A stretch of DNA of 64,000 bases from Octopus vulgaris (taxonomy: Eukaryota), in the NCBI GenBank assembly GCA_951406725.2, contig OX597828.1:76756001-76820000 (forward strand), read 5' to 3'. The number at the start of each line of letters is the position of its first letter. Position 1 is the first letter of the stretch. The notes below the pieces were generated by a model. The model searched no databases. It was given only the letters and a program-made list of their open reading frames with translations, and was not told the DNA's origin. Shown here one piece after another: positions 3,370 to 48,780 of this stretch. A program made the translations under genes and the position numbers.

Positions 3370-3399
<30 letters not shown>

Positions 3400-3402
<3 letters not shown>

Positions 3403-3633
3403 TCTTTACTGCCCACAAGGGGCTAAACATAGAAGGGACGAACAAGGACAGACAAAGGGATTAAGTCGATTACATCGACCCCAGTGCGTAACTGGTACTT
3501 AATTTATCGACCCCGAAAGGATGAAAGGCAAAGTCGACCTCGGCGGACTTTGAACCCAGAACACTTAACGGCAGACGAAATACGGCTAAGCATTTCGCCC
3601 GGCGTGCTAACGTTTCTGCCAGCTCGCCGCCCT
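3400..3633 (-). mobile_element. tRNA-derived SINE family B (Meta-domain-like octopus SINE)
   Basis: Reverse complement GGCGGCGAGCTGGCAGAAACGTTAGCACG...GTCGACTTTGCCTTTCATCCTTTCGGGGTCGATAAATTAAGTACCAG...GCCCCTTGTGGGCAGTAAAGAAA; multiple copies in the window. Confidence 0.9.
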
Positions 3634-6980: not shown

Positions 6981-7363
6981 TACGAGGGGGCGGGGGATGA
7001 AAAGTTTCTGACTTTGAGTAAAATAAAATACTGGAGGATCAGTTTATTACGATTTATTATGATGCTGCGATGGCCGAGTAGTTAAGGCGTTGGACTCGAA
7101 ATCCAATGTGCGATGCCCTCACAGGTTCGAATCCTGTTCGCAGCGTTAATTATTTTAAATGGTGGTGCCCCAGCATGGCCACGGCTCGTGAGCTGAAACT
7201 AGATGAAATAAAAAGAAAACCATATTCCCCTCTCAGATTCATACATTTATTGCAGCTGTCCCTCAGTTTTTCTAAGCCCCGTATAAGAACTCGGAATGTC
7301 GGTCCTCCAGCCAGGCCTTCCGCGATACCCTTAAAACCAGAAATTTTGCAGCACCCCCACGTA
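6981..7363. mobile_element. Mariner-type MITE interrupted by a tRNA-Ser/SINE-tail insertion
   Basis: Imperfect TIRs TACGAGGGGG...TGAAAAGTTTCTGACTTTGAG and CTTAAAACCAGAAATTTTGCAGCACCCCCACGTA, TA ends. Confidence 0.7.
7064..7145 (+). tRNA. tRNA-Ser(CGA), probably a retroposed or pseudogene copy
   Basis: Acceptor GCTGCGA/TCGCAGC, anticodon arm TTGGA-CT-CGA-AA-TCCAA, T arm ACAGG-TTCGAAT-CCTGT, long variable arm. D-loop GG changed to AG, one variable-arm mismatch, followed by a SINE-type tail. Confidence 0.85.
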
Positions 7364-9437: not shown

Positions 9438-10077
9438 AAGTGAGACTTGGACGCTATACACACGCCAAGAGCGTCGCCTAAACATCTTTCCCCTGCGCTG
9501 CCTCTGAAAAATCCTCCGCATCAAATGGCAGAATCATATCCCCAACAAAGATGTCCTCAAGCAAGCAGGAATACCAAGCATGTTTGCACTTCTCACACAA
9601 AGATGTATGAGATGGCTTGGGCATGTTAGCCGTATGAAAGATGGCAGAATCCCCAAGGACATACTCTACGGAGAGCTTGCTAGGAGTACTAGGTCTGTGG
9701 GTAGACCGCTCTTACGTTACAAGGATGTTTGCAAAAGGGACATGAAGGCCTGCAACATCAATATTAGCAATTGGGAAGCAGTTGCCAGCCACCGTGGAGA
9801 TTGTCGACGTACCGTAAAAGAGGAAATACAAAGGAGTGACAGAGAGAGAGAGGAGAAATGGAAAGAAAGGAAGAGACGTAAACAAGAGACTATGGCATTA
9901 CAACCAGCCAGGAACAGTCTTCGCTACATTTGCGGTACCTGCCAGAGGGAGTGTTTGTCCAGGATAGGACTACACTGCCACAGCAGGAAATGTATCAGGA
10001 CATGAAATGTAAAAGCCGGACTAGACTACTTTATGCGCAACTGCATTGTCTCCCGAGACAAAAAGGATGCCAACAAC
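9433..10077 (+). mobile_element. 5'-truncated RTE LINE (RT C-terminus, C2H2 finger and 3' UTR)
   Basis: YGSETWT...RWLGHVSRMKDGRIPKDILYGEL...YICGTCQRECLSRIGLHCH; closely matches 48208-48850; ends GTCTCCCGAGACAAAAAGGATGCCAA; inserted in (TA)n. Confidence 0.93.
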
Positions 10078-10382
10078 ATATATATATATATATATACATT
10101 ACAGATAAAGGGTGAAGTATAACTTAATAAAATCAACAAATTTCACCTAGTAGCACTTCGATATGGAAAAGGACCATATTCGGTAAAAGTTTATATAATT
10201 ATAACAATAAGGGTCTTTACAACAAGTTGCTTGACCACATACCTAAAATTTTAGAAATAGCAGCCAGAGGACTGCTATTTCCTTTTACTACAAAAATATG
10301 TCTCCACAGACAACAATATTTGTAACTCACATGTGGCAAAAAAAAAGAAGAAAAGTAACGAAATCAAACAGTCTCCGGTCAA

Positions 10383-17976: not shown

Positions 17977-17977
<1 letters not shown>

Positions 17978-18306
17978 TACGGAGATGTACTTGCATAGCA
18001 GGTGACCTGATCTGAGATCGTGTGCTGCAACGAAAACAATTGCAGCGTGGAAGGTGTTTATAAGCCATTTAAGAAACACACAAAAGCCGTTAGATTAACT
18101 TCAACATTTAAATTTAATTTGCCAAAATATTTTCGTCGCTTTGAGACCTCGACCTGTTCACTGACATCACGGAATTTTGTCAGTGAACAGGTCACGGTTT
18201 CAAAGCTACGAAAGTATTTTGACGCAAATTAAATTTAAATGTTGAAGTGAATCTAACGGTTTTTGTGTTATTTTAAATGGCTTATAAACACCATCCACGT
18301 TGCAAT
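17977..18306. mobile_element. Inverted pair of Penelope-like pLTRs, each with a G3:C8-variant hammerhead
   Basis: Arms 17977-18166 (-) and 18178-18306 (+) are reverse complements around an 11-bp spacer; same family at 36188-36232 plus 37916-38073. Confidence 0.8.
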
Positions 18307-18496
18307 AATAATAATAATAATAATTTATTCTATAGACACAAGGCTTGAAATTTAGGAGGGAACCAGTTAATTATATTGACCCCAGTGCGTAACTGGTACT
18401 TATATTTTGAATAAAATTGAATGACAAAGTCAACCTCGGCGGAACTTGAACTCAGCACATAAAGATAGACGAAATACCCGGCGTGCTAACCTTTCT

Positions 18497-18721
18497 TATT
18501 TCTTTATTGCTCACAAGGGGTTAAACGTAGAGTGGACAAACAAAGATAGACAAAGGGATTAAGTCGATTACATCGACCCCAGTGCGCAACTGGTACTTAC
18601 TTTATCGACTCCGAAAGGATGAAAGACCAAGTCGACCTCGGCGGAATTTGAACTCAAAACGTAACGGCAGACGAAATACGGCTACGCATTTCGCCCGGTG
18701 TTTCTCCCAGCTCGCCGCCTT
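18497..18721 (-). mobile_element. SINE family B copy adjoining an older family B copy (about 18325-18495)
   Basis: Matches 3400-3633. Confidence 0.88.
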
Positions 18722-28881: not shown

Positions 28882-29095
28882 GTGTGTTTGTGTGTGTTGG
28901 CCCCCGCCATCGCTTGACAAGAGATACTGGTGTGTTTAGCATTTCGGCAAAAGACACCGATAGAGTAAGTACTAGTCTTACAAAGAATATATCCTGGAGT
29001 CGATTACTTCTACTACAAACGCTTTAAGGTGGTGCTCCAGCATGGGCGCAGTCAAATGTAGGTAAGACGTTAAAGACTAAACGAATAGAAGAATA
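28664..29095 (+). mobile_element. SINE family A copy
   Basis: Matches 7665-8125. Confidence 0.85.
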
Positions 29096-29139
29096 ACGAA
29101 TGACCGCTGGAGCTATATATAATGGTATTGTCATCATAA

Positions 29140-29367
29140 GGCGAGCTGGCAGAAACGTTAGCACGTCGGGCGAAATGCTCAGCAGTATTTCGTCTGTCGC
29201 TACGTTGTGAGTTCAAATTACGCCGAGGTCGACTTTGCCTTTCATCCTTTCGGGCTCGATAAATTAAGTACCAATTACGCACTGGGGTCGATATAATCGA
29301 CTTAATACCTATGTCTGTCCTTGTTTGTCCCCTCTGTGTTTAGCCCCTTGTGGGTAGTAAAGAAATA
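29140..29367 (+). mobile_element. SINE family B copy with 16-bp TSD
   Basis: TSD GGTATTGTCATCATAA at 29124-29139 and 29368-29383. Confidence 0.92.
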
Positions 29368-29534
29368 GGTATTGTCATCATAAAGCCCAGATAAGTTTCC
29401 AAGAATCTCTCAAAGCGATGCATTCAAAAATGGTACAAACCACGGATGCAGCTTGACAAATCAAAAGATCATCACATCTGAGGCTATGCGTTATTCATAG
29501 CAAATATTTATAGCAATTATTATGACCGCGTTTG

Positions 29535-30000
29535 GGCCAATGAAATGGTGGAGAGGCCACTAGTATTTTGGGACACTGTCATAATCTCCAATGATTCTTG
29601 ATTTGCTGTATTTTCTTATTTCTTTACTGGCCACAAGGGGTTAAACATAGAGGGGACAAACAAGGACAGACAAACGGATTAAGTCGATTACATCGACCCC
29701 AGTACGTAACTGGTACTCAATATATCGACCCCGAAAAGATGAAAGGCAAAATCAACCTCGGCCGAATTTGAACTCAGAACGTAACGGCAGACGAAATACC
29801 GCTAAGCATTATGCCCAGCGTGCTAACGTTTCTGCCAGCTCACCGCCTTATTTGCTGGATTTTCTGACAGTAGTCGATTTTTGGTCTTGAGACTCTGTGA
29901 TCAAGAATTTGATGTGAAATTATTGCGGCCAATAATGAAACCTGGCAGCTATTCTGTGATGGTATGGAGAGCAATTTGGAGCAATGGTCGCTCAGAGACT
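29535..30000 (+). pseudogene. Tc1 transposase fragment, paralog of 31575-32660, interrupted by a SINE
   Basis: EMVERPLVFWDTVII...EFDVKLLRPIMKPGSYSVMVWRAIWSNGRSE; DNA similarity to 31995-32155. Confidence 0.8.
29617..29849 (-). mobile_element. SINE family B copy with 16-bp TSD (1 mismatch)
   Basis: ATTTGCTG(T/G)ATTTTCT at 29601-29616 and 29850-29865. Confidence 0.92.
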
Positions 30001-30395
30001 AAAACATGGCCCCGGCTAAGACTAAAATATGGTCAGAAATTAAGAAAATAAAAAGTGTCGCTACAGGGTATGAAGACCATCCAGAATCGGTCATAGGAGA
30101 AAAGCTATCAGTATTCTGCAGTTTTCTAGCCTATACAGACCAGACAATTCAATCAAACAAACCATATATGATCTGGGATAGGAGAGACGTCGAAGCCCAT
30201 ATGGTCTTTCAGTTGAATGTTACATATGTCCTGTACGTATCGATGAGGGTATCTTCGATCGTGGAAACATTTTTAAATGTCACTATGCGTAGTGATTCAT
30301 TCATACTGATATTTTAATAAATCGCACACACGCGAACACAGACACACAAACACGCACACTCAGACAGACACACAAACACGCACACACACACACAC

Positions 30396-30775
30396 TGTTC
30401 TTTATTTGTTTTAGTCATCTTGCAGTCATTCCTGGCCTTGTAGAATTCTTGTCAAACGGCACGACCCCAATTCTTGTATTTTCAAACCTGGTACTTATTC
30501 TACCGATCTTTTTTCTCCAACAGCTACGTCACGGGAGCGTAAACACACCAACATCGGTTGTCAAGCGGTACTGGAGACAGACACGTATGCGTATACAACA
30601 CGCATAGACTCACATGCACATACACGGTGGGTTTCTTTCACTTTCAGTCTACCAAACCCATTCAAAAACGTTCGATCACCACCTGGGTAGACTAGAAGCC
30701 ACCGAGGTGCTGTGCAGTGGGACTAAACTCGAACCCTGTTCGTAGGAAGCGAACTTCTTAACATACAGACACATG
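30396..30775 (-). mobile_element. Diverged SINE family A copy
   Basis: Reverse-complement motifs GGTACTTATTCT, GTAAACACACCAACATCGGTTGTCAAGCG, TTTCAGTCTACCAAA. Confidence 0.75.
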
Positions 30776-30962
30776 TACATATTTTATGATATATAAGCTG
30801 AACATCTTAAAAATGAAGGGTCTAAAAAATTACCCGGGGCCATATCCTTGTCGCGCCTCTCGTAAGCCAACCTTATTTCCCCAACTTGAATATGTGCTAC
30901 TAAAATCAGGCTACGTGTAATATGCTTGTGCGTCTTTTAAGCCATCAAATACGGTGTATATA

Positions 30963-31153
<191 letters not shown>

Positions 31154-31167
31154 ATTTTTTTTCTTTA

Positions 31168-31403
31168 TGCGCCCTTTACAAGCCTAGCCAGTCTCATGGG
31201 CCCGGTTTCCCGGTTTCTATGGCGTATGTATTCTCCCCCCCAGTCCATAGCAGCGTTACTCATTCTTGCCAGGTGAGTGTACTGGAGCAGCGGGAAATGA
31301 AGTGTTTTGCTTAAGAACACAACGAGTCGCCCGGTCCAGGAATCGTAACCACAATCTTACGATCATAATGCTGAGACCCTAACTACTAAGCCACGTGCCT
31401 CCA
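31168..31403 (-). mobile_element. SINE family C copy
   Basis: Matches 17361-17621. Confidence 0.87.
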
Positions 31404-31444
31404 TATATATATATATATATATGGACGCACAAACACACACACAC

Positions 31445-31488
<44 letters not shown>

Positions 31489-31574
31489 GGCAGAAGTAAA
31501 TAAACACTCCATAAAACATCGTTTTATGTTTATTCTAACTTGTAAAGGTTTATAATTTTTCTTAATTGACATTT

Positions 31575-32660
31575 TTATATTTCAGGTGCTATATGTGATT
31601 GCTTAATCCTGCTATGTACAAAAAAAACATTGGAACTGTCTGAAGTTCAAAGAGGCCATATTTTGGATCAATCTGAAGGTGTACATAGCGTAAAATCGCA
31701 GAAAACCTTGGGATCCCGCTTACTACAGTTAATAGGATAATAATGTAAATCACCAGAAGGAGCCCACGTTACCACACACAAGTTGACCAGAGCCCTCTGA
31801 GAGGATCTTTCTCTTCGTTAATAGAAGTGTACAGGATAATCCACGTTTCAAGGTCTCTGACATAGCAGAAAAGTTAGTATCAATCCAAGAACAGCTGTCA
31901 GGTATCTCCACAAACTTGGTTACTATGGCAGAGCAGCAAGAAAGAAGCCACTTCTTTGACCAACCAATATCAAGCAGAGAAAAGATTGGGCTTGTGAGAT
32001 GGTGGAGAGGCCACTAGCATTTTGGGACACTGTCATATTCTCTGATGAGTCCAGATTTGCTGAATTTGATGTGAAAAGATTGCAGCCAACAATGAAACAT
32101 TGTAGATATTCTGAGATGATCTGGGGAGCATTTTCGAGCAATTGTCACTCAGAGCTGGTGAAGTGTGAAGGAAATACAAACTCGGATATATATATATATA
32201 TATATATGTCCATATTGCGGAAAGAACTCCTCCTTCCAAATTTCTCAAGTGGTGAAATGGTTAAAGAAGACTCTTCATTTATAGAAGATGGGGCTCCTTG
32301 TCACACGGCTAAAATGACCCAAGATTTGGTGGAAAGGATTGGCATTATAAAGCTTTCACGGCCAAGTCAGTCACCAGATATGAACCCTATTGAACACCTC
32401 AGGGACATAATGGACAGGACAATTCATAAAAAGAACAAGAAAGCATCTTCAAAACAAGATCTTTTGAGATTACTAAATAAGACTTGGCAAGAAAATCCTG
32501 AAGAGAATATTCGTCATCTGATCAGTAAAATGCCCAATAGGGTCCTTGCATTGAAAAAATGTAAAGGACAGGTCTAATGAACACTAAATATTCACATTAT
32601 AAAAATTAATAAATAATTTGTATGCATAATTTTAGATTTAAATAATTTTTATTATAAGAG
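31575..32660 (+). pseudogene. Tc1-like DD34E transposase pseudogene (largest open piece 31999-32577)
   Basis: VIFSDESRF, then D(34)E in FIEDGAPCH...SPDMNPIEH; upstream YYGRAARKKPLL*; internal deletion and (TA)n expansion. Confidence 0.9.
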
Positions 32661-32689
32661 CATCTATTTACATCTGTCATATGTGTGTG

Positions 32690-32730
<41 letters not shown>

Positions 32731-33182
32731 GATATAGGATCAAATTTTTTTCGGGAAAACATTATATCAATGGCCAGCATGTCAAAAAATGCCTTTAAAG
32801 GTAAAATTTATACATAATTTACGAGATAAGGGCAGAAGAAAAATTCTGGTTATCGACAATTTTTTGCTTCGGCGTATCTGGCATTAGAATTTTTCTTCTG
32901 CCCTTATCTTGTGTATGTATATATATATACTTTAATTAAAGCAGGAACAACAGAGTGAAGAGAGCGAGAGAGAGAAAGAGAGGGAGAGAGAGAAAGAGAA
33001 GGGGAGAGAGAGAGAATTCCTTCTTGGACATTATTGTTTCCGTTGCCAGAAAGGAGAATCTGCGAATATGGAATCCTGCTAATTTCAGATTTAAAATAAA
33101 TGTTATTCTCTCTACCTAACAATATCGAGGGATTATGTTTCGCTTAATTGCAGTTCACACCATCGTCTCTTCCCCCCCTCTC

Positions 33183-33230
<48 letters not shown>

Positions 33231-33515
33231 AGTTCCTTCTCTGTGTGAGCGTGTGGGCGTGTGGGCGTATTAGAATACGCAAATACGAACGCCTTGTCGA
33301 GTTTGTTTAGGAGTGTGTGTATATGTGTGTGGGTGTGCATGTGTGTGTGTGTATGTCTGTAGGTGTGTGCATGCATGCGTGTGAGCATGCATGCGTGTAT
33401 GCGTGTGTGTCACTGTATTTATCTGAGGAAGAAAGAGAATCTGGTGTGAGAGGGAAACAAATGAAGCGACTGAGCGTAATGCAAAGATTATAAGCGAAAC
33501 GAAAATGATGTAAGT

Positions 33516-33564
<49 letters not shown>

Positions 33565-33687
33565 TGTGTGTGTGTGTGTGCGTGTGTGTGTGTGTCTGTG
33601 TGCATCTGTGTGTGTCTGTGTGTGTGCGTGCGCGTGTATATGTGTATACTTTTCCTTGTTTCAGTCATTTGACTCCGGCCATGCTTG

Positions 33688-33728
<41 letters not shown>

Positions 33729-35127
33729 CATACATATATATACAAGATAAGAAAATGGAGAAATACATCTAAATCAAATATCAATTACCAGATAATACTC
33801 AATCACATACTTTATTAAACCACCACATAAGAGACTGTAGGGTTAAATATAAAAAAGCAGAACAAATCAGTGTACATAAAGGAACGTACATAAAAAGTGT
33901 ACATAAAAGAGTAATGTTGTATAATAAGTAGAATATATAAAAAAGAGAATATAAATATAAGTAAATATAAATATGAGTACAAACCCCTATCTCAATTTGT
34001 ATATATATATATATAATTATGTACATCAACAACACAACACAAAAACAATAAGCAAATAACTAGAATAACTATACCAGAGGAGAAGGAATTAAGAATCGTA
34101 CGTGGACATTTACTAGAAATTAGAGCCAAAATAGACTTTGCCTTTTAATGCCAATTTTCCATGGAGATATCAAACTGAGATTCCTTAATAGCGCCGGAGT
34201 TGGTCCTCGATTGCTTTTAGAAAAACCAGGAATATGAAATATTGTTTCGCGTAGATTGCTTCACTTGCCATTTGTGTACGTCGTACATTGACTAGTTTTG
34301 GTTTTCTAGGAATTTTTTTTTTTTGGTTTAGTTTTTATTGCCATGTTTTGGTCGCTCTTCCTTATTTCAAAAAGTATATCTGAGATTTCATGGAATCTGT
34401 GCGGTCACGTTGAACTGATGGCGGCGTTTACAGCACAGCACAGAACGTGCACACACGCATGCACGTATTGGGAAAAGCAAAAAACGCATGATGCACAGAT
34501 ATGCATGTACGTGTGTGTGTGCGCGGGTCTGTGTATGTTGTGTGCGCGCGTGCATGTGTGTGTGTGCGCGTGTGTGTGTGTGCGTGTGTGTATGCGTGTG
34601 TGTATGTGTGTGCAAGTGTGCGTGTGTGTACGCGGGTCTTTTCGTGTGTGCGCGAGCGCGTGTATTTGCGTGCGCTCGTGTGTGTGCGCGCGCGTGCATG
34701 TGCGTATATTTGTGTGCACGCGCGTGCACATGCGCTGGCTTATCTGTGAGGTGCGAATATTGCTTTGCAATCCAACAGTTCCGAGCCTGTCTCGGTGCGT
34801 GGCACCTTGGGCTCGTGGTTTGCACCAAACCCGTATGGCCCCGGGGCTGACCAAACACTTATGAATCAATATGGTAGGCGGACACTAAAAGAAGCCTGTC
34901 GTATATATGTGTGTGTGCGTGTTTATATGTCTGTGTGTGTGTGTGCATATGTGCAGGTGTGGGTGTGTAGTAAGAAATTTATTTCTCAATCACCTGGTCC
35001 TGAGTTCTGTCCCACTGTGTAGAACCTTGGACAATTTCCTTATAGTGGAGTCTCATCCCGACTGAAGACTTGTGAGTGGTTTAAAAGGATCCCGTCGCAT
35101 ATATGTGCGTACATGTATGCGTATATA

Positions 35128-35490
35128 GGCGCTGGGGTGGCTATGTGGTAAGAAGCTTCCTTCCCAATCTCATGGTTCCGGCTTCAGTCCCACTGCGTGG
35201 CAATATGGCCAAGTGCCTTCTTCTATGATCTGCGGTCAACCAAAGCCTTATCAGTGAATTTAGTGAACGGAAACTGAAAGAATCCCTTCGTGTGTATATA
35301 TATATATTTATATATATATATATATATATACATACGCATATGTGTGTGTGTGCGTTTGCGTGTGTGTGTATATATTTGTGTGTCTGTGTCTGTACCTCCC
35401 CCCCCCCACCGACATCGCTCGACAACAGACGCCGGCGTATTTAGGTCCCAGTAAGGTAGCGCCTCGCCCACCAGTTACCTACCGGGTTTC
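35128..35490 (+). mobile_element. SINE family A copy, with further partial copies at about 34770-35100
   Basis: Head GGCGCTGGGGTGGCTATGTGGTAAGAAGCTT and body match family A. Confidence 0.8.
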
Positions 35491-36122
35491 AAAAGGCTAA
35501 AATTTCCCAATCTTTTCTCTGATGTTTCCTGCATCCGTTGAATTTTACTGAAATGATAGACTCATAAATACCATCCTACCGCCAGAAAACCCCTCATTGC
35601 AGAGACAACAGTTACACAACGTTATTTCTGAAGAAACTTCCACGCATTCCAAAAAGCTAAAAGCGAAACATTGGGATGTGTAGCTTTTAGAAAGTGGTGA
35701 GGTGATGGGTAAAATTCTTAATGCTTCGTACACTCGGATTTTTCTCCATGGATTACCAAGAATAAAAGTTTGAAAACAAATGACAAATGAACTTGGTGTA
35801 GAGAGGAAAAAATTGAAATATTGAGAACGTGCTTTGTGAGTGAAATCCTAATTTCCTGTATCGCAAACATGGGAATCGGAAGAAATTTAGAACAAAAAAA
35901 GAAATTGGGGGACAGAAATGTTACTTCGGACATGCTAGAAAGAAGAGGTAAAGAAGACGATGTCTGAGAAAACTTCCTTTAAGTTTATATCGAAGATCAG
36001 GTTCTTAAATACATCACAAACACAAATTACACAAATAGAAAAAAGATCATTTCAACTGGATTTGAGCTGGAAATTTGCGACTGCAAGAAATAACATAATT
36101 CGCACAGAACACGTATCTATTG

Positions 36123-36163
<41 letters not shown>

Positions 36164-36232
36164 CAAAAATCTATGCTGCACGGATCTTTGTCAGTGAACA
36201 GGTCGCGGATTTTAGCGACGAAAATATTTTGA

Positions 36233-37915
36233 GGGCGTCGGTTGTTATTTTTGAACGCTCGTGAAATTGTGTAAAACAGAACAAAAAGTAAGTTAGAAAA
36301 TTGTTGTTGTTGAATTTTGTTGTACGTTTGTTGATACGGTTTCGTGTTATACTGTTTCTGCTCTGGCGGCCGTTGTCTTTCTGTGTGAGACAGACAAGAG
36401 GATATGGACGACCCCTCTCTGATGGAAGAGTCGGAGGAGGAATGGTTGTTCGAGACCTTGTCGGAGGCACCGACTCTGAGGACGAGGTGACTGGCGCTGT
36501 GAATAATATTAAAACCGGGAAGACGTACGCTGAAGCTGCAAAAAAGAAGACGACGGAGGAAAAGGAGAAAAACATAGAAAAATTACCAGGTTTTCAAGCT
36601 TACATAACTAAAGCAGGTGGGGAGGTAAAACTACTTCCGCCAGAGAAACGAGAAGAATGGTTTATGAAGAGGATTATAAAATACCGGACATATGGAAAAG
36701 ATAACAGGAAAGTAGAAATAATAAAAATGGAAGATATTGAGGAGGCGCTGAGAAGAGAGAAGGAAGAAATCCCATTCATGACGAGAGGAAACGAGTTCGG
36801 AACTATAAGAGTGCAGTTCGAAAGCAAAAATATAGCAAGGAAAATGGCAACAAAGACAATAAAAACTGAAAAAGTAATATTGTTACCCTCCTACATGAAC
36901 CAAAGAATAAATAGAATAAGAGTTGAAGGGATACCCCCCCACATAGAGGGTGAATGGGTTGTCGCGGCGATTATAAAAGATGTGGAAGAAGAGACGGACA
37001 TTTTACAAGCGACCGTAAAAAATGAAGGTTTACGTGGCAAAACGCTAGAAATGAGCGTTCAAGCAGAGGAGGGTGCACTGGAGAAGATGGCGGACAGCAT
37101 AATTTTAGGGAATATAGTAATGAGAGTGTGGGTGGAGGTCAGAGCACCAAGGTGCTATAAGTGTGGCCTGAGGGGCCACATAAGAGCCTACTGCCCTCCC
37201 CCACAAAAGGAAACAGTGATCCAGGAAGAGGAGGAGACGGAGCCGGAAAAAGTTGAGGAGGAAGAATCTGAGGAGGAGAAGGAGGCCCAAACTGAGTGGG
37301 AAGACGTAAGGAAAAAAAGAAAAAGAAGGAAAGTGAACTTTATCGAACCCCAATCCACCCCAACACCACCCGCACCCTCTGAGCCCCATCCTTCCCCTGC
37401 AAGCTATGATCCCACCCACTCCCCGCCTACAAGAAAACCTAAAAACGCAGACATACAGAGTAAACAAGAGCCCAAGTCCCATTTTTTATGTTTTGTAAAA
37501 AAAAAGGAAGACAATGAGAACTCAACAAGAGTCTTTGGTAAAGAAGCATGGTATGAAGAAGAAGATGGGAGTTATTTGGTGGTGGAAGGGGAAGTAATGG
37601 ACACAAGGAAGATGTGTGTAAATGAGGGCGTAAAAGCGATTGAGATGGAATTTTCGAATGAGAAGATAAAAGAGTATGAAAGGATATTTGAGAAAGTGAT
37701 AAGAAAAGAGGGACTTTTGGTTGGAGATGATAGGTGACGAAGGGTTTGTGAAGGACAGGTAAGTGGTGCTGGCGGATGGGGCCGTCAGCATCGCTTTCAT
37801 ATTATCACTTATCATTCTAAAAATTCATTCTCCATACTATTAATTATAATGTTCTATGTCCCCAATGTTTTGTGGTGTCCCCTCTGTGTCGCCCCTAGTG
37901 GGTAATAAAGAAAGA
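36233..37915 (+). mobile_element. ORF1-only (HAL1-like) non-LTR retroelement of L1/Tx1 type, 13-bp TSD
   Basis: TSD GAAAATATTTTGA at 36220-36232 and 37916-37928; single ORF; ~180-bp 3' UTR ending TGTCCCCTCTGTGTCGCCCCTAGTGGGTAATAAAGAAAGA. Confidence 0.85.
36442..37737 (+). CDS. Gag-like LINE ORF1 protein (~431 aa): RRM-like region, CCHC zinc knuckle, acidic/basic tract, Pro-rich linker, C-terminal domain
   Basis: First in-frame ATG at 36442; CYKCGLRGHIRAYC = CX2CX4HX4C; KTYAEAAKK and IRVEGIPPHI motifs typical of L1/Tx1 ORF1; KKRKRRK NLS-like. Confidence 0.85.
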   Translation: MVVRDLVGGTDSEDEVTGAVNNIKTGKTYAEAAKKKTTEEKEKNIEKLPGFQAYITKAGGEVKLLPPEKREEWFMKRIIKYRTYGKDNRKVEIIKMEDIEEALRREKEEIPFMTRGNEFGTIRVQFESKNIARKMATKTIKTEKVILLPSYMNQRINRIRVEGIPPHIEGEWVVAAIIKDVEEETDILQATVKNEGLRGKTLEMSVQAEEGALEKMADSIILGNIVMRVWVEVRAPRCYKCGLRGHIRAYCPPPQKETVIQEEEETEPEKVEEEESEEEKEAQTEWEDVRKKRKRRKVNFIEPQSTPTPPAPSEPHPSPASYDPTHSPPTRKPKNADIQSKQEPKSHFLCFVKKKEDNENSTRVFGKEAWYEEEDGSYLVVEGEVMDTRKMCVNEGVKAIEMEFSNEKIKEYERIFEKVIRKEGLLVGDDR

Positions 37916-40699
37916 GAAAATATTTTGACAAATTATACTTAAATGTTGAAGTGAATCGAACAGCTTTTGTGTGTTTCTTAAATGGCTTACAAACACCTTC
38001 CACGCTGCAATTGTTTTCGTTTCAGCACGCGATCTCAGATCAAATCACTTGCTATGCGAGTACATCTCCGTAACATATATATATATATATATATCAAACG
38101 ACGAGTGTGCATGTGTGAAATAGTGTGACCTAATCGATAATGTGTTAGCCACATGTCGTAATTCGATACATAGACGAGTCGATGCTTTTCGTCTTTAAGC
38201 CCCCCCCCCCCAAATAACTCATTTCACTCCGAACCTGAACATTTAACCGAGAATGAAAAATGGCGGAGCAGTTCTGCCGTTATAGCAGTTCATGTTTGAT
38301 AGATCCAGAAAATTTGTCAATGAGTGACTACACAGACCTCAAAAATAACTAGTACAATCTACCAGTCGCTACTTGGTTGCGAGAGATTGATTGTTTATAA
38401 AATGATGTCCATTGGGTGAACTCGATTGCTTGATACATACTTTCTGTATCGCGCAAGATAAGATTGATATGAGCGAGGTTTGAACGCGGAATGATGTACG
38501 TTCAAAACTGAATATTTTACGCCGTGTTGTGTAAACACAATAACTTTCAGCCATTTCAAGTGATCTCGAGATTACTCCAACTAAGAGAAATATTAGCACT
38601 GGCTTCACACAAAATGGAAACTTAATTCCCAGATAGAGGTTTGTGTCGGGCTCAATTATGTTGAATTTTCACTAATGATAACAGATTTATATTCATCCTG
38701 CTGAGATTTATCCGATAGATTTTAGAGTGTCATATTGTACAACACGGCTTGTCATGTCAGTTCCCTCTTTATGGCCCTATAAGTACTTATCTGTAAGTTA
38801 TGTACCAGTAAAATATTGGGGAAAATTAACTAATCAAGACTGATTAAGTATTCAACTAATTATTGTTTCGGCCTTAAATTATATGGCATGGTGCAATCTC
38901 TTTCGGTGAATTGGTTAGCGTGTTCGTTTAGACACAGGTTTTGGCTAGAAAGACATCAGGCTGGATTTAGTTCATGCGTTCGATCTCATTTGCTGTAAAC
39001 CCCTGAGGGACTCGACGTTTATCATCTTCAGTTGAGTGCGTCACTTTCTCCAAGTCGAAATAAAATATCCATTTATTTCTATGGAAATTTGAATCTATTT
39101 CAGATTTAATCTATTTAAAGGATTCGAATTGATTTCATTGCAGAATAGAATCATCAATTATTTTGAAAATGGATAAAATCAGATCTATTTGTGGAATTGA
39201 TTAAGTTACAAGACTGGACAATAAAGAGAGTTTGTTGCGTGTAAGTCGTAAGAATGTGTCCCGCTTCCAATTGCGCCATCAATGTGTCCACGAAGAAACG
39301 TGTATAAGTATGACCACGAGAAAATTTTGATGAAATATAAAATGGAATTGATTCGGCTTTTATGTTAGATTTAATTTATGTCTTTATTTCCTGTATCAAC
39401 CTTAGGCATCTGATAGCTGTCAGCTTGGATATTCATTCCAATGTTTCTGGAAATTTAACTGAATCAGAGAGAATTCTTACTCAGATATTGTCACTAGTGT
39501 GTAGCAAAATTAACAGTTTTAACTTAAATCTGGTGACATTATAGATAAAGTTTGCAGACTTGCTATTATTATTAAAAGTATATTTGGTTGCCAATTACTG
39601 TGCTATGCTTTTACTGTTGTTACTTCTATCTACTTTTAATTCCACTTCCATTTCAGATTCCAGTTTCCAGTTCTGTTACTCTGCACACAACTTTTAACAT
39701 ATTTTATTACCGTTGTGAGAAGTTTTGTCTATCAGAACGAGGCAGCGCCAAAACACTGCCAGTGAGATTTTAATCGAATCACAGAATCATTAGCCTAAAT
39801 ATAACACAGTCCCATACTCGACAAAGAGGTACACAACGTTTTATTCTAATGGATTCTCGGCGGTTCATTGAGTAGACTTCAGTCTTTACACGCACATATC
39901 CGCCGGCATATCTCTATCTCTTTCTACCCATATCTGCATATCTACTTACATGTATGCATATATATATCTGCTTGCGTATATGTACGCAAGGTGCCGACCG
40001 GAGTAAAGCTAGATGAGGTTAACTCATCACGACCAAGAGTCATCATTCTCTGTATGCACCCATTGCAGTAGCAGCAGATCAATGCAGATATCAGAGTTGC
40101 TTCTGCTCCATATCTCTGTGCCCTTTTACCTGAGTAAAATATGTGAGAATCTTAAAGTTGGAGCTGCAGTAGTGCATCGAGAGAGATGCAGTTATGATCG
40201 GCTGTTTCGCAAGCATTATTGTCTCTGTAGCTGAAATTAGCTGGAAAGAAACTGAAAGATTTTCACATGTGTTTATATTTTGTGGCATTGGATCTATGAC
40301 TATGCTCTGTATATGGCCTGCTGTAGTGATGTAGAAATTATTGTTTTGTGGCATTTGTAGTTCGTATATATTTATTGCAGAGAAAATCGAGGCTCATGCA
40401 AAGGCTAACCAAATACATGATTAATAATAGTTTAAAAAACTATTTTGGTTGTTTCTTTGTTTGGTCACTTATGTTTTCTGAATATTTTCTTCATTTGTGC
40501 TCTCTATATTCTTTGTACACAGAAATCTTAAAAAAGTTTTGTAAGTAATTTCAAATAATTCTTTCGTGTGTTTCGGGTGTATTATATGTTACGGGTTACT
40601 GAATATCATTCTTGGTTCTATGGAATATTGTTTCATGTAGCTAGAGGGAAGGAACCGTGTGTGCTTTGCTAAATGCATATGTCATTGGTATATAAGCAG

Positions 40700-45570: not shown

Positions 45571-48500
45571 CTTGAAAAGCGGCCTGCAACCTCTGCACCA
45601 AGCAAACAGCTAAAAGACAAGAAACCACCCGTCCTGCGGTTGGCAAGCTGGAATGTGAGGACCATGTGCCCTGGAATATCTGATGATCTACTCAGGGTTG
45701 AAGACACAAGGAAAACGGCCATCATTGACCGTGAACTAAAGAGACTTAACGTAGACATTGCTGGGCTACAGGAGACAAGACTTCCCTCAAACAGCAAACT
45801 CAAAGAACAGTATTTCACCTTCTTTTGGCAGGGAAGCGATACAGAAGAACCTCGTCAGCATGGCGTTGGCTTTGCAGTGAGAAACTCATTACTCTCCTCA
45901 ATATAACCACCATCAGGAGGCACTGAGCGTATCCTCTCACTGCGCCTCTCGACTTCTTCTGGCACAGTACATCTACTCATCATCTATTCTCCCACTCTCT
46001 ACAGCTCAGAGGAGACCAAGGACCAGTTCTACAAAGATCTCAACTGTGTCATTAAAAATATGCCAACAATTGAAAACATCTACCTTCTAGGGGATTTTAA
46101 CGCTGGCGTGGGATCTGACCATGATTCGTGGCCCATTTGTGTTGGACACTTTGGTATTGGCAACATGAATGACAATGGTCAGAGACTACTTGAATTTTGC
46201 ACATACCATAACCTGTGCATCACAAACACATTCTTTGCCCACAAGCCATCCCACAAGGCATCTTGGATACATCCAAGATCTCACCACTGGCATCAGCTGG
46301 ATCTCATCATTATACGGAGATCATTTCTGAATTCTGTTCAACTGACCCGCAGTTACCACAGCGCGGATTGTGACACAGATCACTCACTAATTAGAAGTAG
46401 GGTGAGGATTCTGCCTAAAAAAGTCCATCGCTCCAAGAAAGTGGGCCAGAACCTCGAACCCTACACTGCGAAAATGTTTTGCTGCTTCTATCAAGGTTGC
46501 CCTCAGTAGCTGCCGAACCTCCTCTGCTGAAAGTAGGTGGAATTATATCAGGGAAGCTTTGTATACCACATCAATAGATACTTTCGGCATGAGAGAAAGG
46601 CAAAACCCAGATTGGTTCAATGCTGGGCTCTCAGAGCTGGAGCCAGTTATCGAAGCAAAGCGTGCAGCTCTGATGCAACACAAGAGTGATTCTTCTACAA
46701 AGTCACTCGAAGAACTCAGAAAGGCAAGAAATAAAACCCAACTGACAGCCAGACGCTGTGCAAATAGGTATTGGCAGGAAATCTGTCAGAGCATCCAGTC
46801 AGCTGCTGACAGGGGCGACACCCGTGGGATGTATGCCGGTTTGAAGAAGGCCCTCGGTCAATCCGCAACCAAGTCAGCCCCTCTGAAATCAACTACTGGA
46901 GATCTCATCAGGGATCAAAGCAAGCAAATGGATAGATGGGTGGAGCACTACCAGGATCTCTACTCACGGGAGACTACAGTAGCTGAGGCTGCAATCGAGA
47001 GTGTCAAGATCTGGCCAGTGAAGTGCGAACTTGACAATCCGCCATCTATAGCAGAGCTCACCAGGGCTATTGACTCCCTAGCAAGTAACAAGGCTCCGGG
47101 AAAAGGCGGCATCCCCTCAGAGATCATCAAAGCCGGCAAAAACACCATCTTGCTTCAGCACCTTCATGAGCTTCTGTGTCAGTGCTGGGAAGAGGGTACA
47201 GTCCCTCAGGATATGCGAGATGCTAACATCATTACGCTTTACAAAAACAAAGGTGACCGTGGTGATTGTAACAATTACCGTGGTATATCTCTTCTAAGCA
47301 CTGTTAGAAAGACCTTTGCTCGCGTTATCCTGACTAGGCTACAACTACTTGTTTCTCGTATCTATCCGGAATCGCAGTGTGGCTTTAGAAGAAGCAGATC
47401 AACTATTGACGTGATATTCTCCATACGCCAACTTCAGGAGAAGTCCAGAGAGCAGAAAATGCCATTATATATGGCCTTCATTGATCTGACAAAGGCCTTT
47501 GACTCGGTAAGTAGAAAAGGCCTCTTCATCCTGCTCTAAAAAATCGGATGTCCACCAAAGCTGCTGAGGATCATCAAGTCTTTCCATTATGATATGCAAG
47601 GCACCATACAGCACAATGGTTCAACATCAGCAGCCTTCCAAATAAAAAACGGGGTAAAGCAAGGTTGTGTCCTCGCTCCTACATTATTTGGCATCTTCTT
47701 CTCGCTCTTACTCTCACATGCCTTTCAGACATCAGATGATGGAGTGTTTCTGCACATTAGAAGTGACAGGAAATTGCTCAATCTCTCGCGCCTGCGTGCC
47801 AAGACCAAAATCAGAAGCGTCGTGATCAAGGAGATGCTATTTGCTGATGATGCCGCTCTGGTATCATACACAGAAGAAGCCCTCCAAAGGCTCATTAACT
47901 GTTTTGAGCAAGCATGTAACGACTTTGGCTTAGCCATCAGCCTTAAAAAGACCAACATCATGGGTCAGGCTACATCGGACATCCCAAACATACATATTGG
48001 AGACCACAGATTACAGGAGGTGGAGAAGTTTACCTATCTTGGCTCTACCATCACCTACAACCTATCCCTTGACGCTGAGCTCAATATACGCATTGGCAAG
48101 GCAGCTGTTGCGATGGCACAACTCTCCAAACGGGCATGGGACAACAATAAGCTGACCAAGACCACGAAAATGAAGATCTACCAGGCATGTGTACTTAGCA
48201 CTCTACTGTATGGAAGTGAGACTTGGACGCCATACACACGCCAAGAGCGTCGCCTAAACATCTTTCACCTACGCTGCCTCCGGAAAAATCCTCCGCATCA
48301 AATGGCAGAATCATGTCCCCAACAAAGATGTCCTCAAGCAAGCAGGAATACCAAGCTTGTTTGCACTCCTCACACAAAGACGTATGAGATGGCTTGGGCA
48401 TGTTAGCCGTATGAAAGATGGCAGAATCCCCAAGAACATACTCTACGGAGAGCTTGCTAGGGGTACTAGGTCTGTGGGAAGACCGTTCTTACGTTACAAG

Positions 48501-48780
48501 GATGTTTGCAAAAGGGACATGAAGGCCTGAAACATCTATATTAGCAATTGGGAAGCAGTTGCCAGCCACCGTGGAGATTGGCGACGTACCGTAAAAGAGG
48601 GAATGCAAAGGAGTGACAGAGAGAGAGAGAGAAGAAATGGAAAGACAAGAAAAAACGTCAACAAGAAACTATGACATTACAATCAGCCAAGAACAGTCTT
48701 CGCTACATTTGCGGCACCTGCCAGAGGGAGTGTTTGTCCAGGATAGGACTACACAGCCACAGCAGATGTATCAGGACATG
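45571..48780 (+). pseudogene. RTE ORF: APE endonuclease, reverse transcriptase and C2H2 finger, disabled
   Basis: ASWNVRT, GLQETR, LGDFNA, DCDTDH (APE); NYRGISLLS, QCGFR, FIDLTKAFDSV, GVKQGCVLAP, FADD (RT); YICGTCQREC. Stops at 45904, 47537 and 48528; frameshifts near 46450-46510 and 48285. Confidence 0.95.

What the first reader, a model, noticed from the sequence alone, without database searches (positions are those of the whole stretch)
36233..37915. ORF1-only retroelement sharing its 3' tail with a SINE family: a three-tier retrotransposition system
A clean 13-bp TSD bounds a 1.68-kb unit made of a 5' UTR, an uninterrupted ~431-aa gag-like ORF and a ~180-bp 3' UTR, with no endonuclease or RT. 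It was therefore probably retroposed in this form using an RT in trans. Its last ~40 nt (TGTCCCCTCTGTGTCGCCCCTAGTGGGTAATAAAGAAA) match the family B SINE tail (TGTCCCCTCTGTGTTTAGCCCCTTGTGGGTAGTAAAGAAA, 29325-29365), and the TSD lengths are similar (13 vs 16 bp). Inference: an unseen autonomous L1/Tx1-type LINE drives both a protein-coding HAL1-like parasite that supplies its own RNP protein and a Meta-domain SINE. It is the longest uninterrupted ORF in the window.
Basis: partly seen in the sequence, partly recalled or inferred. Interest (0 to 1): 0.85.

Follow-up and report, generated by a model that had tools for sequence, protein, structure and literature searches.

The report
Octopus ORF1-only parasitic retrotransposon family
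This 1.7-kb jumping gene, likely from an octopus genome, carries one predicted RNA-binding protein and no copying enzyme, recurs as a family in related species, and ends in the same tail as a short repeat family, so both likely borrow the enzyme of one still-unseen LINE retrotransposon: a new case of a known kind of genomic parasite.

Summary
A 13-bp target-site duplication bounds a 1683-bp unit with one 431-aa ORF and no endonuclease or RT. Empty sites carry the target once, in the window and in 4 of 4 laid runs. The protein is predicted as two RRM-like domains plus one CCHC knuckle, a type I LINE ORF1. All 16 species-named relatives are octopod. Contigs about 97%, 86% and 77% alike run from ORF1 into the same 3' UTR with no room for ORF2. 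So this is a family, not a one-off deletion; the coding differences listed lean synonymous (15 of 26). The last 38 nt match four SINE copies and belong to the UTR in other copies. The autonomous LINE was not found. An L1/Tx1-type origin rests on remote ORF1 homology to pseudoscorpion EN-RT elements. The 'Meta-domain' label for the SINE is not supported. It is a new, probably independent member of the HeT-A/HAL1/Ag-Sponge class.

The parts
36220..36232 (+). 5' copy of the 13-bp target-site duplication
   Evidence: Exact repeat at 37916-37928; empty sites hold the target once
36233..36441 (+). 5' UTR (209 nt); likely holds an internal Pol II promoter (inferred, untested)
   Evidence: Between TSD and ORF; family contigs in runs X1, X3 and X9 begin at about 36235 (table 3, from_end values)
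36404..36490 (+). 28-codon upstream ORF in another frame, overlapping the ORF1 start; meaning unresolved
36442..37737 (+). ORF1, 431 aa: predicted RRM-like domains at about aa 68-154 and 152-235, one CCHC knuckle at aa 238-251, then acidic, basic and Pro-rich low-complexity stretches and a low-confidence C-terminal part
   Evidence: relatives
37738..37915 (+). 3' UTR (178 nt); the part from 37751 on is shared with diverged subfamilies
   Evidence: tables 2, 5 and 8
37876..37913 (+). 38-nt tail shared with the SINE family; ends in AAAGAAA, not poly(A); a 4-bp hairpin is predicted but is no better than shuffles
37916..37928 (+). 3' copy of the target-site duplication
36165..38074 (.). Very high-copy unclassified host repeat, split by the insertion
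   Evidence: Flank depth is hundreds to thousands of times that of the ORF body in X1, X3 and X4 (table 2); uninterrupted copies at 17977-18306
29140..29368 (+). SINE family B copy with A-box- and B-box-like head, shared tail and a 16-bp TSD (29124-29139, 29369-29384)
   Evidence: box motifs read by eye against a recalled consensus
29617..29851 (-). SINE family B copy with shared tail and a 16-bp TSD (one mismatch)
3399..3628 (-). SINE family B copy with shared tail, inside (TA)n
18497..18716 (-). SINE family B copy with shared tail
17977..18306 (.). Two uninterrupted, inverted copies of the host repeat: empty-site controls with a single target

Best explanation
It is a full-length copy of a multi-copy retrotransposon family that encodes only a LINE ORF1 protein and is likely copied by the endonuclease-reverse transcriptase of an autonomous, probably L1/Tx1-type LINE that would recognise the same 3' tail in this element and in the tRNA-type SINE family B. 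Shown: the TSD and empty site, the ORF1-only layout in several subfamilies, the shared tail, and a synonymous bias in the ORF. Predicted: the RRM-RRM-CCHC fold. Inferred steps: (1) the ancestor lost ORF2 by internal deletion and kept the 5' UTR, ORF1 and 3' end; (2) the RNA is made from an internal promoter; (3) its own ORF1p coats the RNA in cis, or mixes with the LINE's ORF1p, which is why the frame stays under selection in master copies; (4) ORF2p in trans binds the last ~40 nt, nicks AT-rich DNA and primes reverse transcription, possibly helped by a GAAA match between tail and target; (5) the SINE picked up the same tail and rides the same enzyme. Rough odds: ORF1-only family 0.9; shared driver with the SINE 0.75; driver of L1/Tx1 type 0.6.
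For: Empty site: joints 36208->37916 skipping 1707 in 4 of 4 runs (9, 7, 6 and 2 contigs, table 5) and two window copies. Family: 30 of 30 bins covered in 4 of 4 runs from 3 organism labels; contigs start at about 36235 in 3 runs. No ORF2: X3 record 15 (3 differences) and X9 records 30 (16) and 31 (54) bridge the stop into the UTR. X9 record 27 (61 differences in 271 nt) has at most 577 nt between knuckle and record end; a single-contig joint into 37751 with the same depth (283.7) is taken to be this record. Tail joined to UTR in other copies: X1 record 8, X9 record 32. Constraint: 15 of 26 listed ORF differences are synonymous against 26% expected, P = 0.0006; both listed ORF indels are 3 nt, all 10 listed UTR indels 1-2 nt (table 4). 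Fold. ORF1 profile hits 24 of 100 proteins from the pseudoscorpion LINE search, none when reversed. Shared length and identity fit published SINE-LINE tails (35-61 bp, 72-95%; PMC11481361 passage).
Against: No autonomous LINE with this tail was found; no whole genome was held. The link to L1/Tx1 is remote (23-25% identity; RRM-only profile best E 5e-5) and from another phylum. Type I ORF1s occur in many clades and move between them (PMC4120745 passages). The tail is not poly(A), unlike mammalian L1 and HAL1. The tail hairpin is not significant (element z -0.65; present in 2 of 4 SINE copies). The synonymous test used only the 26 ORF rows among 40 shown of 512. No laid contig spans the whole element, and 24,028 pieces were not shown. 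This copy carries a private change at a nearly invariant glycine (aa 233), so its own protein may be impaired.
Confidence: 0.7

Rival explanations
1. Same ORF1-only family and same shared tail, but the driver is a LINE of another clade (CR1, L2, Nimb/I or Dong-R4). The element took its tail from that LINE or from the SINE by template switch, so ORF1 and driver have separate origins.
For: Only ~38 of 178 UTR bases match the SINE. A non-poly(A) tail suits stringent LINEs (PMC4176376 passages). ORF1 types shuffle between clades. CR1 and Dong-R4 are listed as recently active in O. vulgaris (PMC13282606 Table 1).
Against: One knuckle rather than the three tabulated for most CR1, L2 and Jockey type I ORF1s. 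The only EN-RT-linked homologues found are L1-like. L1-Tx1 is also listed as recently active there (13 families). The window's other LINE (EN-RT at 46060-48406) ends in a different tail.
Confidence: 0.2
2. A one-off internally deleted copy of an ordinary two-ORF LINE.
For: Only one copy lies in the window, and no contig spans the whole unit.
Against: Contigs of three divergence levels, from at least two organism labels, keep the same short ORF1-to-UTR spacing (X3 record 15; X9 records 27, 30, 31).
Confidence: 0.04
3. The tail is a separate, 5'-truncated SINE insertion at the end of the element.
For: The matching part is short and the SINE is abundant.
Against: No second TSD around the tail; the single TSD encloses the whole unit. 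Other copies have UTR and tail contiguous, then leave into other flanks (X1 record 8, X9 record 32). The element lacks the 2-nt insertion seen in the SINE tail (table 4, 37890).
Confidence: 0.03
4. A processed retrocopy of a domesticated ORF1-derived host gene (ZCCHC3-like), or a remnant of a non-autonomous LTR element.
For: Feature search places it near ZCCHC3-like clusters (score 0.89-0.90, lead only); the ORF is intact.
Against: No poly(A). Many diverged subfamilies instead of one parent gene. No terminal direct repeats and no capsid fold among the listed matches. A 13-bp TSD is longer than the 4-6 bp recalled for LTR elements.
Confidence: 0.03

Closest known systems
ORF1-present bipartite non-autonomous LINEs: HAL1 (from L1), HeT-A (from Jockey), Ag-Sponge (from CR1); PMC5786205 passage, PMC5753468 passage
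   Same: 5' part, ORF1 and 3' part of a LINE without ORF2; ORF1 kept; needs an RT in trans.
   Different: Mollusc host. Type I ORF1 with one knuckle, not the coiled-coil type of mammalian L1 (types per PMC4120745). Interspersed rather than telomeric like HeT-A. Non-poly(A) tail shared with a tRNA-type SINE. Likely an independent origin.
L1/Tx1-type LINE ORF1 (pseudoscorpion Cordylochernes EN-RT elements; Tx1 clade as described in PMC4494074 passages)
   Same: RRM-RRM-CCHC followed by a Pro-rich tail. Insertion into another repeat resembles the target preferences reported for Tx1, but n = 1 here.
   Different: No endonuclease or RT; only 23-25% identity; RT clade of the octopus driver unknown.
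Stringent SINE-LINE pairs sharing a 3' tail (PMC4176376; PMC11481361)
   Same: A shared terminal stretch of about 38 nt at 78-88% identity; similar TSD lengths (13, 16, 16 bp).
   Different: The partner seen here is a protein-coding non-autonomous element; the LINE itself is unseen; stem-loop support is weak.
ZCCHC3-like proteins (Pfam RBD_ZCCHC3_1st and 2nd)
   Same: Two RNA-binding domains plus CCHC by feature search.
   Different: No Pfam match to those families in the query or among the families listed for its alignment; this is a mobile multi-copy family.

Membership tests
ORF1-only non-autonomous LINE (HAL1/HeT-A/Sponge class) | Encodes a LINE ORF1 protein | tested here: met
   Predicted tandem RRM-like domains plus CCHC; profile homology to ORF1 upstream of EN-RT
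ORF1-only non-autonomous LINE (HAL1/HeT-A/Sponge class) | No ORF2 between ORF1 and 3' UTR, in more than one copy | tested here: met
   Window copy; contigs X3 record 15 and X9 records 27, 30, 31
ORF1-only non-autonomous LINE (HAL1/HeT-A/Sponge class) | Inserted as a unit with TSD, no LTR or TIR | tested here: met
   TSD shown for this copy only
ORF1-only non-autonomous LINE (HAL1/HeT-A/Sponge class) | 5' and 3' ends homologous to an autonomous LINE partner | not testable with these tools
   No genome held; no octopus LINE locus could be fetched
ORF1-only non-autonomous LINE (HAL1/HeT-A/Sponge class) | ORF1 under purifying selection | tested here: met
   15 of 26 listed differences synonymous, P = 0.0006; a partial list, not a dN/dS estimate
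HAL1 proper (mammalian half-L1) | Derived from mammalian L1: coiled-coil/RRM/CTD ORF1 and poly(A) end | tested here: not met
   Two RRM-like domains plus CCHC; ends in AAAGAAAGA. It works like HAL1 but is not one.
L1/Tx1 clade | RT phylogeny of the autonomous partner | not testable with these tools
   Partner not found; no RT in the element
L1/Tx1 clade | ORF1 homologous to ORF1 of L1-like EN-RT elements | tested here: inconclusive
   Remote hits; the hosts' ORF2 matches human L1 ORF2p at E 1e-29 against R2 at 1e-12, but no hit to a CR1, L2 or RTE enzyme was available for contrast
MetaSINE (for SINE family B) | 66-bp Meta-domain directly after the tRNA head (PMC4824008 section 9) | tested here: inconclusive
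   No resemblance by eye to two bivalve MetaSINE alignments in the supplement. A 17-nt motif from them hit 0 of the SINE copies; 4 window hits against 3.2 by chance. The paper's Fig. 2 consensus could not be seen. Leans to not met.
tRNA-derived SINE (for family B) | [quoted passage not shown] | tested here: inconclusive
   About 230 bp, TSDs and box-like motifs by eye; ARAGORN and Rfam report no tRNA match over these copies
Stringent-type tail | Conserved 3' stem-loop needed for RT recognition | tested here: inconclusive
   4-bp hairpin predicted in the element and 2 of 4 SINE copies, not better than shuffles

The most novel reading that the evidence does not exclude
The whole octopod radiation of these ORF1 proteins (dozens of lineages under 55% identity, in three Octopus species and Argonauta) consists of ORF1-only elements that have outlived their parent LINE. 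They now pair with an unrelated LINE by having captured its tail: a 'split LINE' in which one family supplies the RNP protein and another the enzyme, and whose ORF1p could also serve the SINE.
Probability: 0.15. Interest if true: 0.75.

Novelty: new member of a known kind. Interest (0 to 1): 0.45.

Why it matters
ORF1-only LINE derivatives are listed from only three clades in the review passage read. An independent, long-lived and apparently abundant case in octopods gives a natural test of why ORF1p is kept when the RT comes in trans. The tail shared with a major SINE family is a ready probe for that SINE's unknown driver. The family also likely explains many 'uncharacterized' Octopus gene models that are ORF1 fragments, which matters for annotation and for claims about novel octopus genes.

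Tried and rejected
No whole genome was held, so copies could not be counted directly. Viral contigs gave no relative and no tail match. The metagenome scan returned 3 loci, all unrelated LTR gag-pol matched through the knuckle alone. No RNA holder was listed among the runs; this says nothing on expression. 149 of the 150 listed homologues were scanned with Pfam and none showed RT or endonuclease; most are short fragments and ORF2 is a separate frame, so this is weak and not counted as evidence. The search meant to find octopus ORF2 proteins was filled by pseudoscorpion copies, 99 of 100. Peptides read from the loose ends before 37751 matched no stored C-terminus, so whether those ends are ORF1 or ORF2 ends is open. 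A C-terminal domain profile from six relatives did not match this protein. Rfam found only microsatellite noise in 29000-38500. The window's EN-RT LINE at 46060-48406 was rejected as driver because its 3' end differs. Depth values were not turned into copy numbers. Four look-ups of earlier findings were empty. Bao and Jurka 2010 was not held. Seven paper searches listed no title or abstract on an octopus ORF1-only element; Repbase, Dfam and the O. vulgaris repeat library were not searchable, so it may already be catalogued there.

Full report
Observation. The unit 36233-37915 is bounded by GAAAATATTTTGA at 36220-36232 and 37916-37928, found nowhere else in the window. By chance, 4 of 20,000 random pairs of 60-nt windows share a complex 13-mer. 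It holds a 209-nt 5' UTR, an ORF of 431 aa at 36442-37737 and a 178-nt 3' UTR. The frame is the longest stop-free frame in the window (481 codons, next 377). Pfam finds only a weak zinc knuckle. Bases 37876-37913 match the ends of four full SINE copies (29140+, 3628-, 29851-, 18716-) at 78-88%, and 0 of 1000 shuffled UTRs reached any of the four scores.

The TSD is real. The element splits a very high-copy repeat. Two uninterrupted copies of that repeat at 17977-18306 carry the target once. In 4 of 4 laid runs, contigs join left flank to right flank, skipping 1707 bases (9, 7, 6 and 2 contigs, table 5), and loose ends behind 36232 continue with right-flank letters in X1 and X3 (table 7).

It is a family and it lacks ORF2. 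20 of 24 listed runs, under four organism labels, hold part of the element. I laid 4 of them, from labels A, A, B and D. All 30 bins are covered in each, by several different contigs per site. Contigs in X1, X3 and X9 begin at about 36235, the TSD-defined 5' end. The stop codon is bridged into the UTR by X3 record 15 (3 differences in 128 nt) and X9 records 30 (16 in 484) and 31 (54 in 399). X9 record 27 is 77% alike in the ORF core and has only 577 nt beyond 37204 (orientation read from records 4 and 11; 383 nt under the other reading). A single-contig joint into 37751 shares its depth of 283.7, so I take it as the same record. Either way there is no room for a 3-kb ORF2. That diverged subfamily is 15 to 30 times deeper in X9 than the near-identical one, and depth peaks at the knuckle, the Pro-rich piece and the UTR in all four runs; depth is not a copy number. 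UTR and tail are contiguous in other copies (X1 record 8, X9 record 32), and the element's tail lacks the SINE's 2-nt insertion, so the tail is not a separate SINE insertion. Limits: no contig spans the unit, and 24,028 pieces were not shown.

The frame is constrained. Of 40 differences shown (of 512), 26 lie in the ORF; 15 are synonymous against 26% expected with transition weighting, P = 0.0006. Of 12 indels shown (of 96), the two in the ORF are 3 nt and the ten in the UTR 1-2 nt. The closest contigs differ from this copy by 2-4%. This copy has a private change at a glycine nearly invariant in relatives (aa 233), so it may itself be decaying.

The protein. The model is confident over aa 41-250. 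It matches tandem-RRM proteins (Foldseek E about 1e-5); VIA gives RRM Z 8.4 (rmsd 2.5, 78 aligned) for aa 68-154 and Z 6.5-7.3 to RRM and ACT-like folds for aa 152-235. With the knuckle at 238-251 this is a type I ORF1 as defined in PMC4120745 (passages). phmmer finds 323 representatives, 58 at E 1e-10 or better. Of 30 looked up, 16 carry a species name: 15 Octopus and 1 Argonauta; the best true hit is O. sinensis at 53%. The window is therefore likely an octopus genome (inference). The profile reaches ORF1 regions upstream of endonuclease and RT in pseudoscorpion gene models (2 hits; 24 of 100, none when reversed). Their ORF2 is closest to human L1 ORF2p among solved structures. This makes an L1/Tx1-type ancestry likely but not shown, because type I ORF1s occur in several clades and move between them.

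The SINE. Family B is about 230 bp with A- and B-box-like motifs (by eye, recalled consensus) and 16-bp TSDs in two copies. MetaSINEs carry their 66-bp domain right after the head (PMC4824008 section 9). The bivalve examples in its supplement (part 1 of 4; search hits) do not resemble family B by eye, and a motif from them hits no SINE copy. The figure with the Meta consensus could not be seen, so this is not a formal exclusion. Octopus SINEs OR1 and OR2 are cited as CORE-SINEs (passages); I could not compare sequences.

Mechanism. Shown: unit insertion with TSD, ORF1-only layout across subfamilies, shared tail. Inferred: an ancestor lost ORF2 by internal deletion; the RNA is coated by its own ORF1p, alone or mixed with the LINE's (the role proposed for this class in PMC5786205, passage); an ORF2p in trans binds the last ~40 nt and primes at an AT-rich nick. 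Tail recognition of this kind is demonstrated for zebrafish L2 elements (PMC4176376, abstract and passages), and bivalve SINE-LINE tails share 35-61 bp at 72-95% (PMC11481361, passage), the range seen here. Against: the predicted 4-bp hairpin is no better than shuffles and the driver is unseen. The window's own EN-RT LINE ends differently. O. vulgaris has recently active L1-Tx1, CR1, RTE and Dong-R4 families (PMC13282606, part 1 of 3 and passages), so candidates exist.

Comparison and novelty. It works like HAL1, HeT-A and Ag-Sponge and meets the testable features of that class. It is not HAL1 proper, since ORF1 type and 3' end differ. L1 with HAL1 and Alu already forms a three-tier set (PMC5753468 passages), so the concept is known. 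New here are a mollusc instance, a single-knuckle type I ORF1, and a sequence-specific tail shared with a tRNA-type SINE. Seven searches listed nothing on an octopus ORF1-only element, and the two octopus TE papers showed no such passage (PMC9115989; PMC13282606). Their supplements and repeat libraries, Repbase and Dfam were not seen and may hold it. PMC4494074 and PMC11203168 were seen as passages only.

Verdict. Real and well supported as an ORF1-only non-autonomous retrotransposon family; shared driver likely; driver clade open; Meta label unsupported. New member of a known kind, interest 0.45.

Noticed in passing
window 17977-18306 and 36165-38074: Unclassified host repeat of very high depth; two copies sit head to head as an inverted pair centred near 18167, and copies end next to (TA)n or (TTA)n.
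   Followed up: partly
window 46060-48700 (+) and 9580-10100 (+): Broken EN-RT LINE with a C-terminal C2H2-like motif, plus a 3' fragment of the same family; likely RTE clade (recalled motifs). Its tail differs from the element's.
   Followed up: partly
window 31999-32577 (+): DDE_3 (Tc1/mariner-type) transposase fragment.
   Followed up: no
window 7063-7146 (+): ARAGORN tRNA-Ser(CGA) call; may be the head of another SINE family.
   Followed up: no
window 36404-36490 (+): 28-codon upstream ORF with a strong start context overlaps the ORF1 start in another frame; whether other copies share it is unknown.
   Followed up: partly
proteins P0006, P0011, P0014, P0022, P0051, P0080: Distant relatives appear to share an unnamed ~85-aa C-terminal domain; a profile of it also hits P0116, P0045 and P0136 but not this element's protein.
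   Followed up: partly
proteins P0031, P0058, P0085, P0117: Gene models fuse pieces of this ORF1 to LDL-receptor, Helitron helicase, C2H2 zinc-finger and WD40 domains; likely annotation chimeras, though exonisation is not excluded.
   Followed up: no
window 29140-29367 and 29617-29844: Two SINE family B copies lie inverted 249 nt apart, 88% complementary.
   Followed up: no
window 18370-18716 (-): A full SINE B copy runs directly into a second, partial and more diverged copy.
   Followed up: no
clusters of P0010, P0017, P0051: Distant relatives lie on contigs of 1.7-2.2 kb, the size expected of ORF1-only units; not proof, since such contigs are often short.
   Followed up: no
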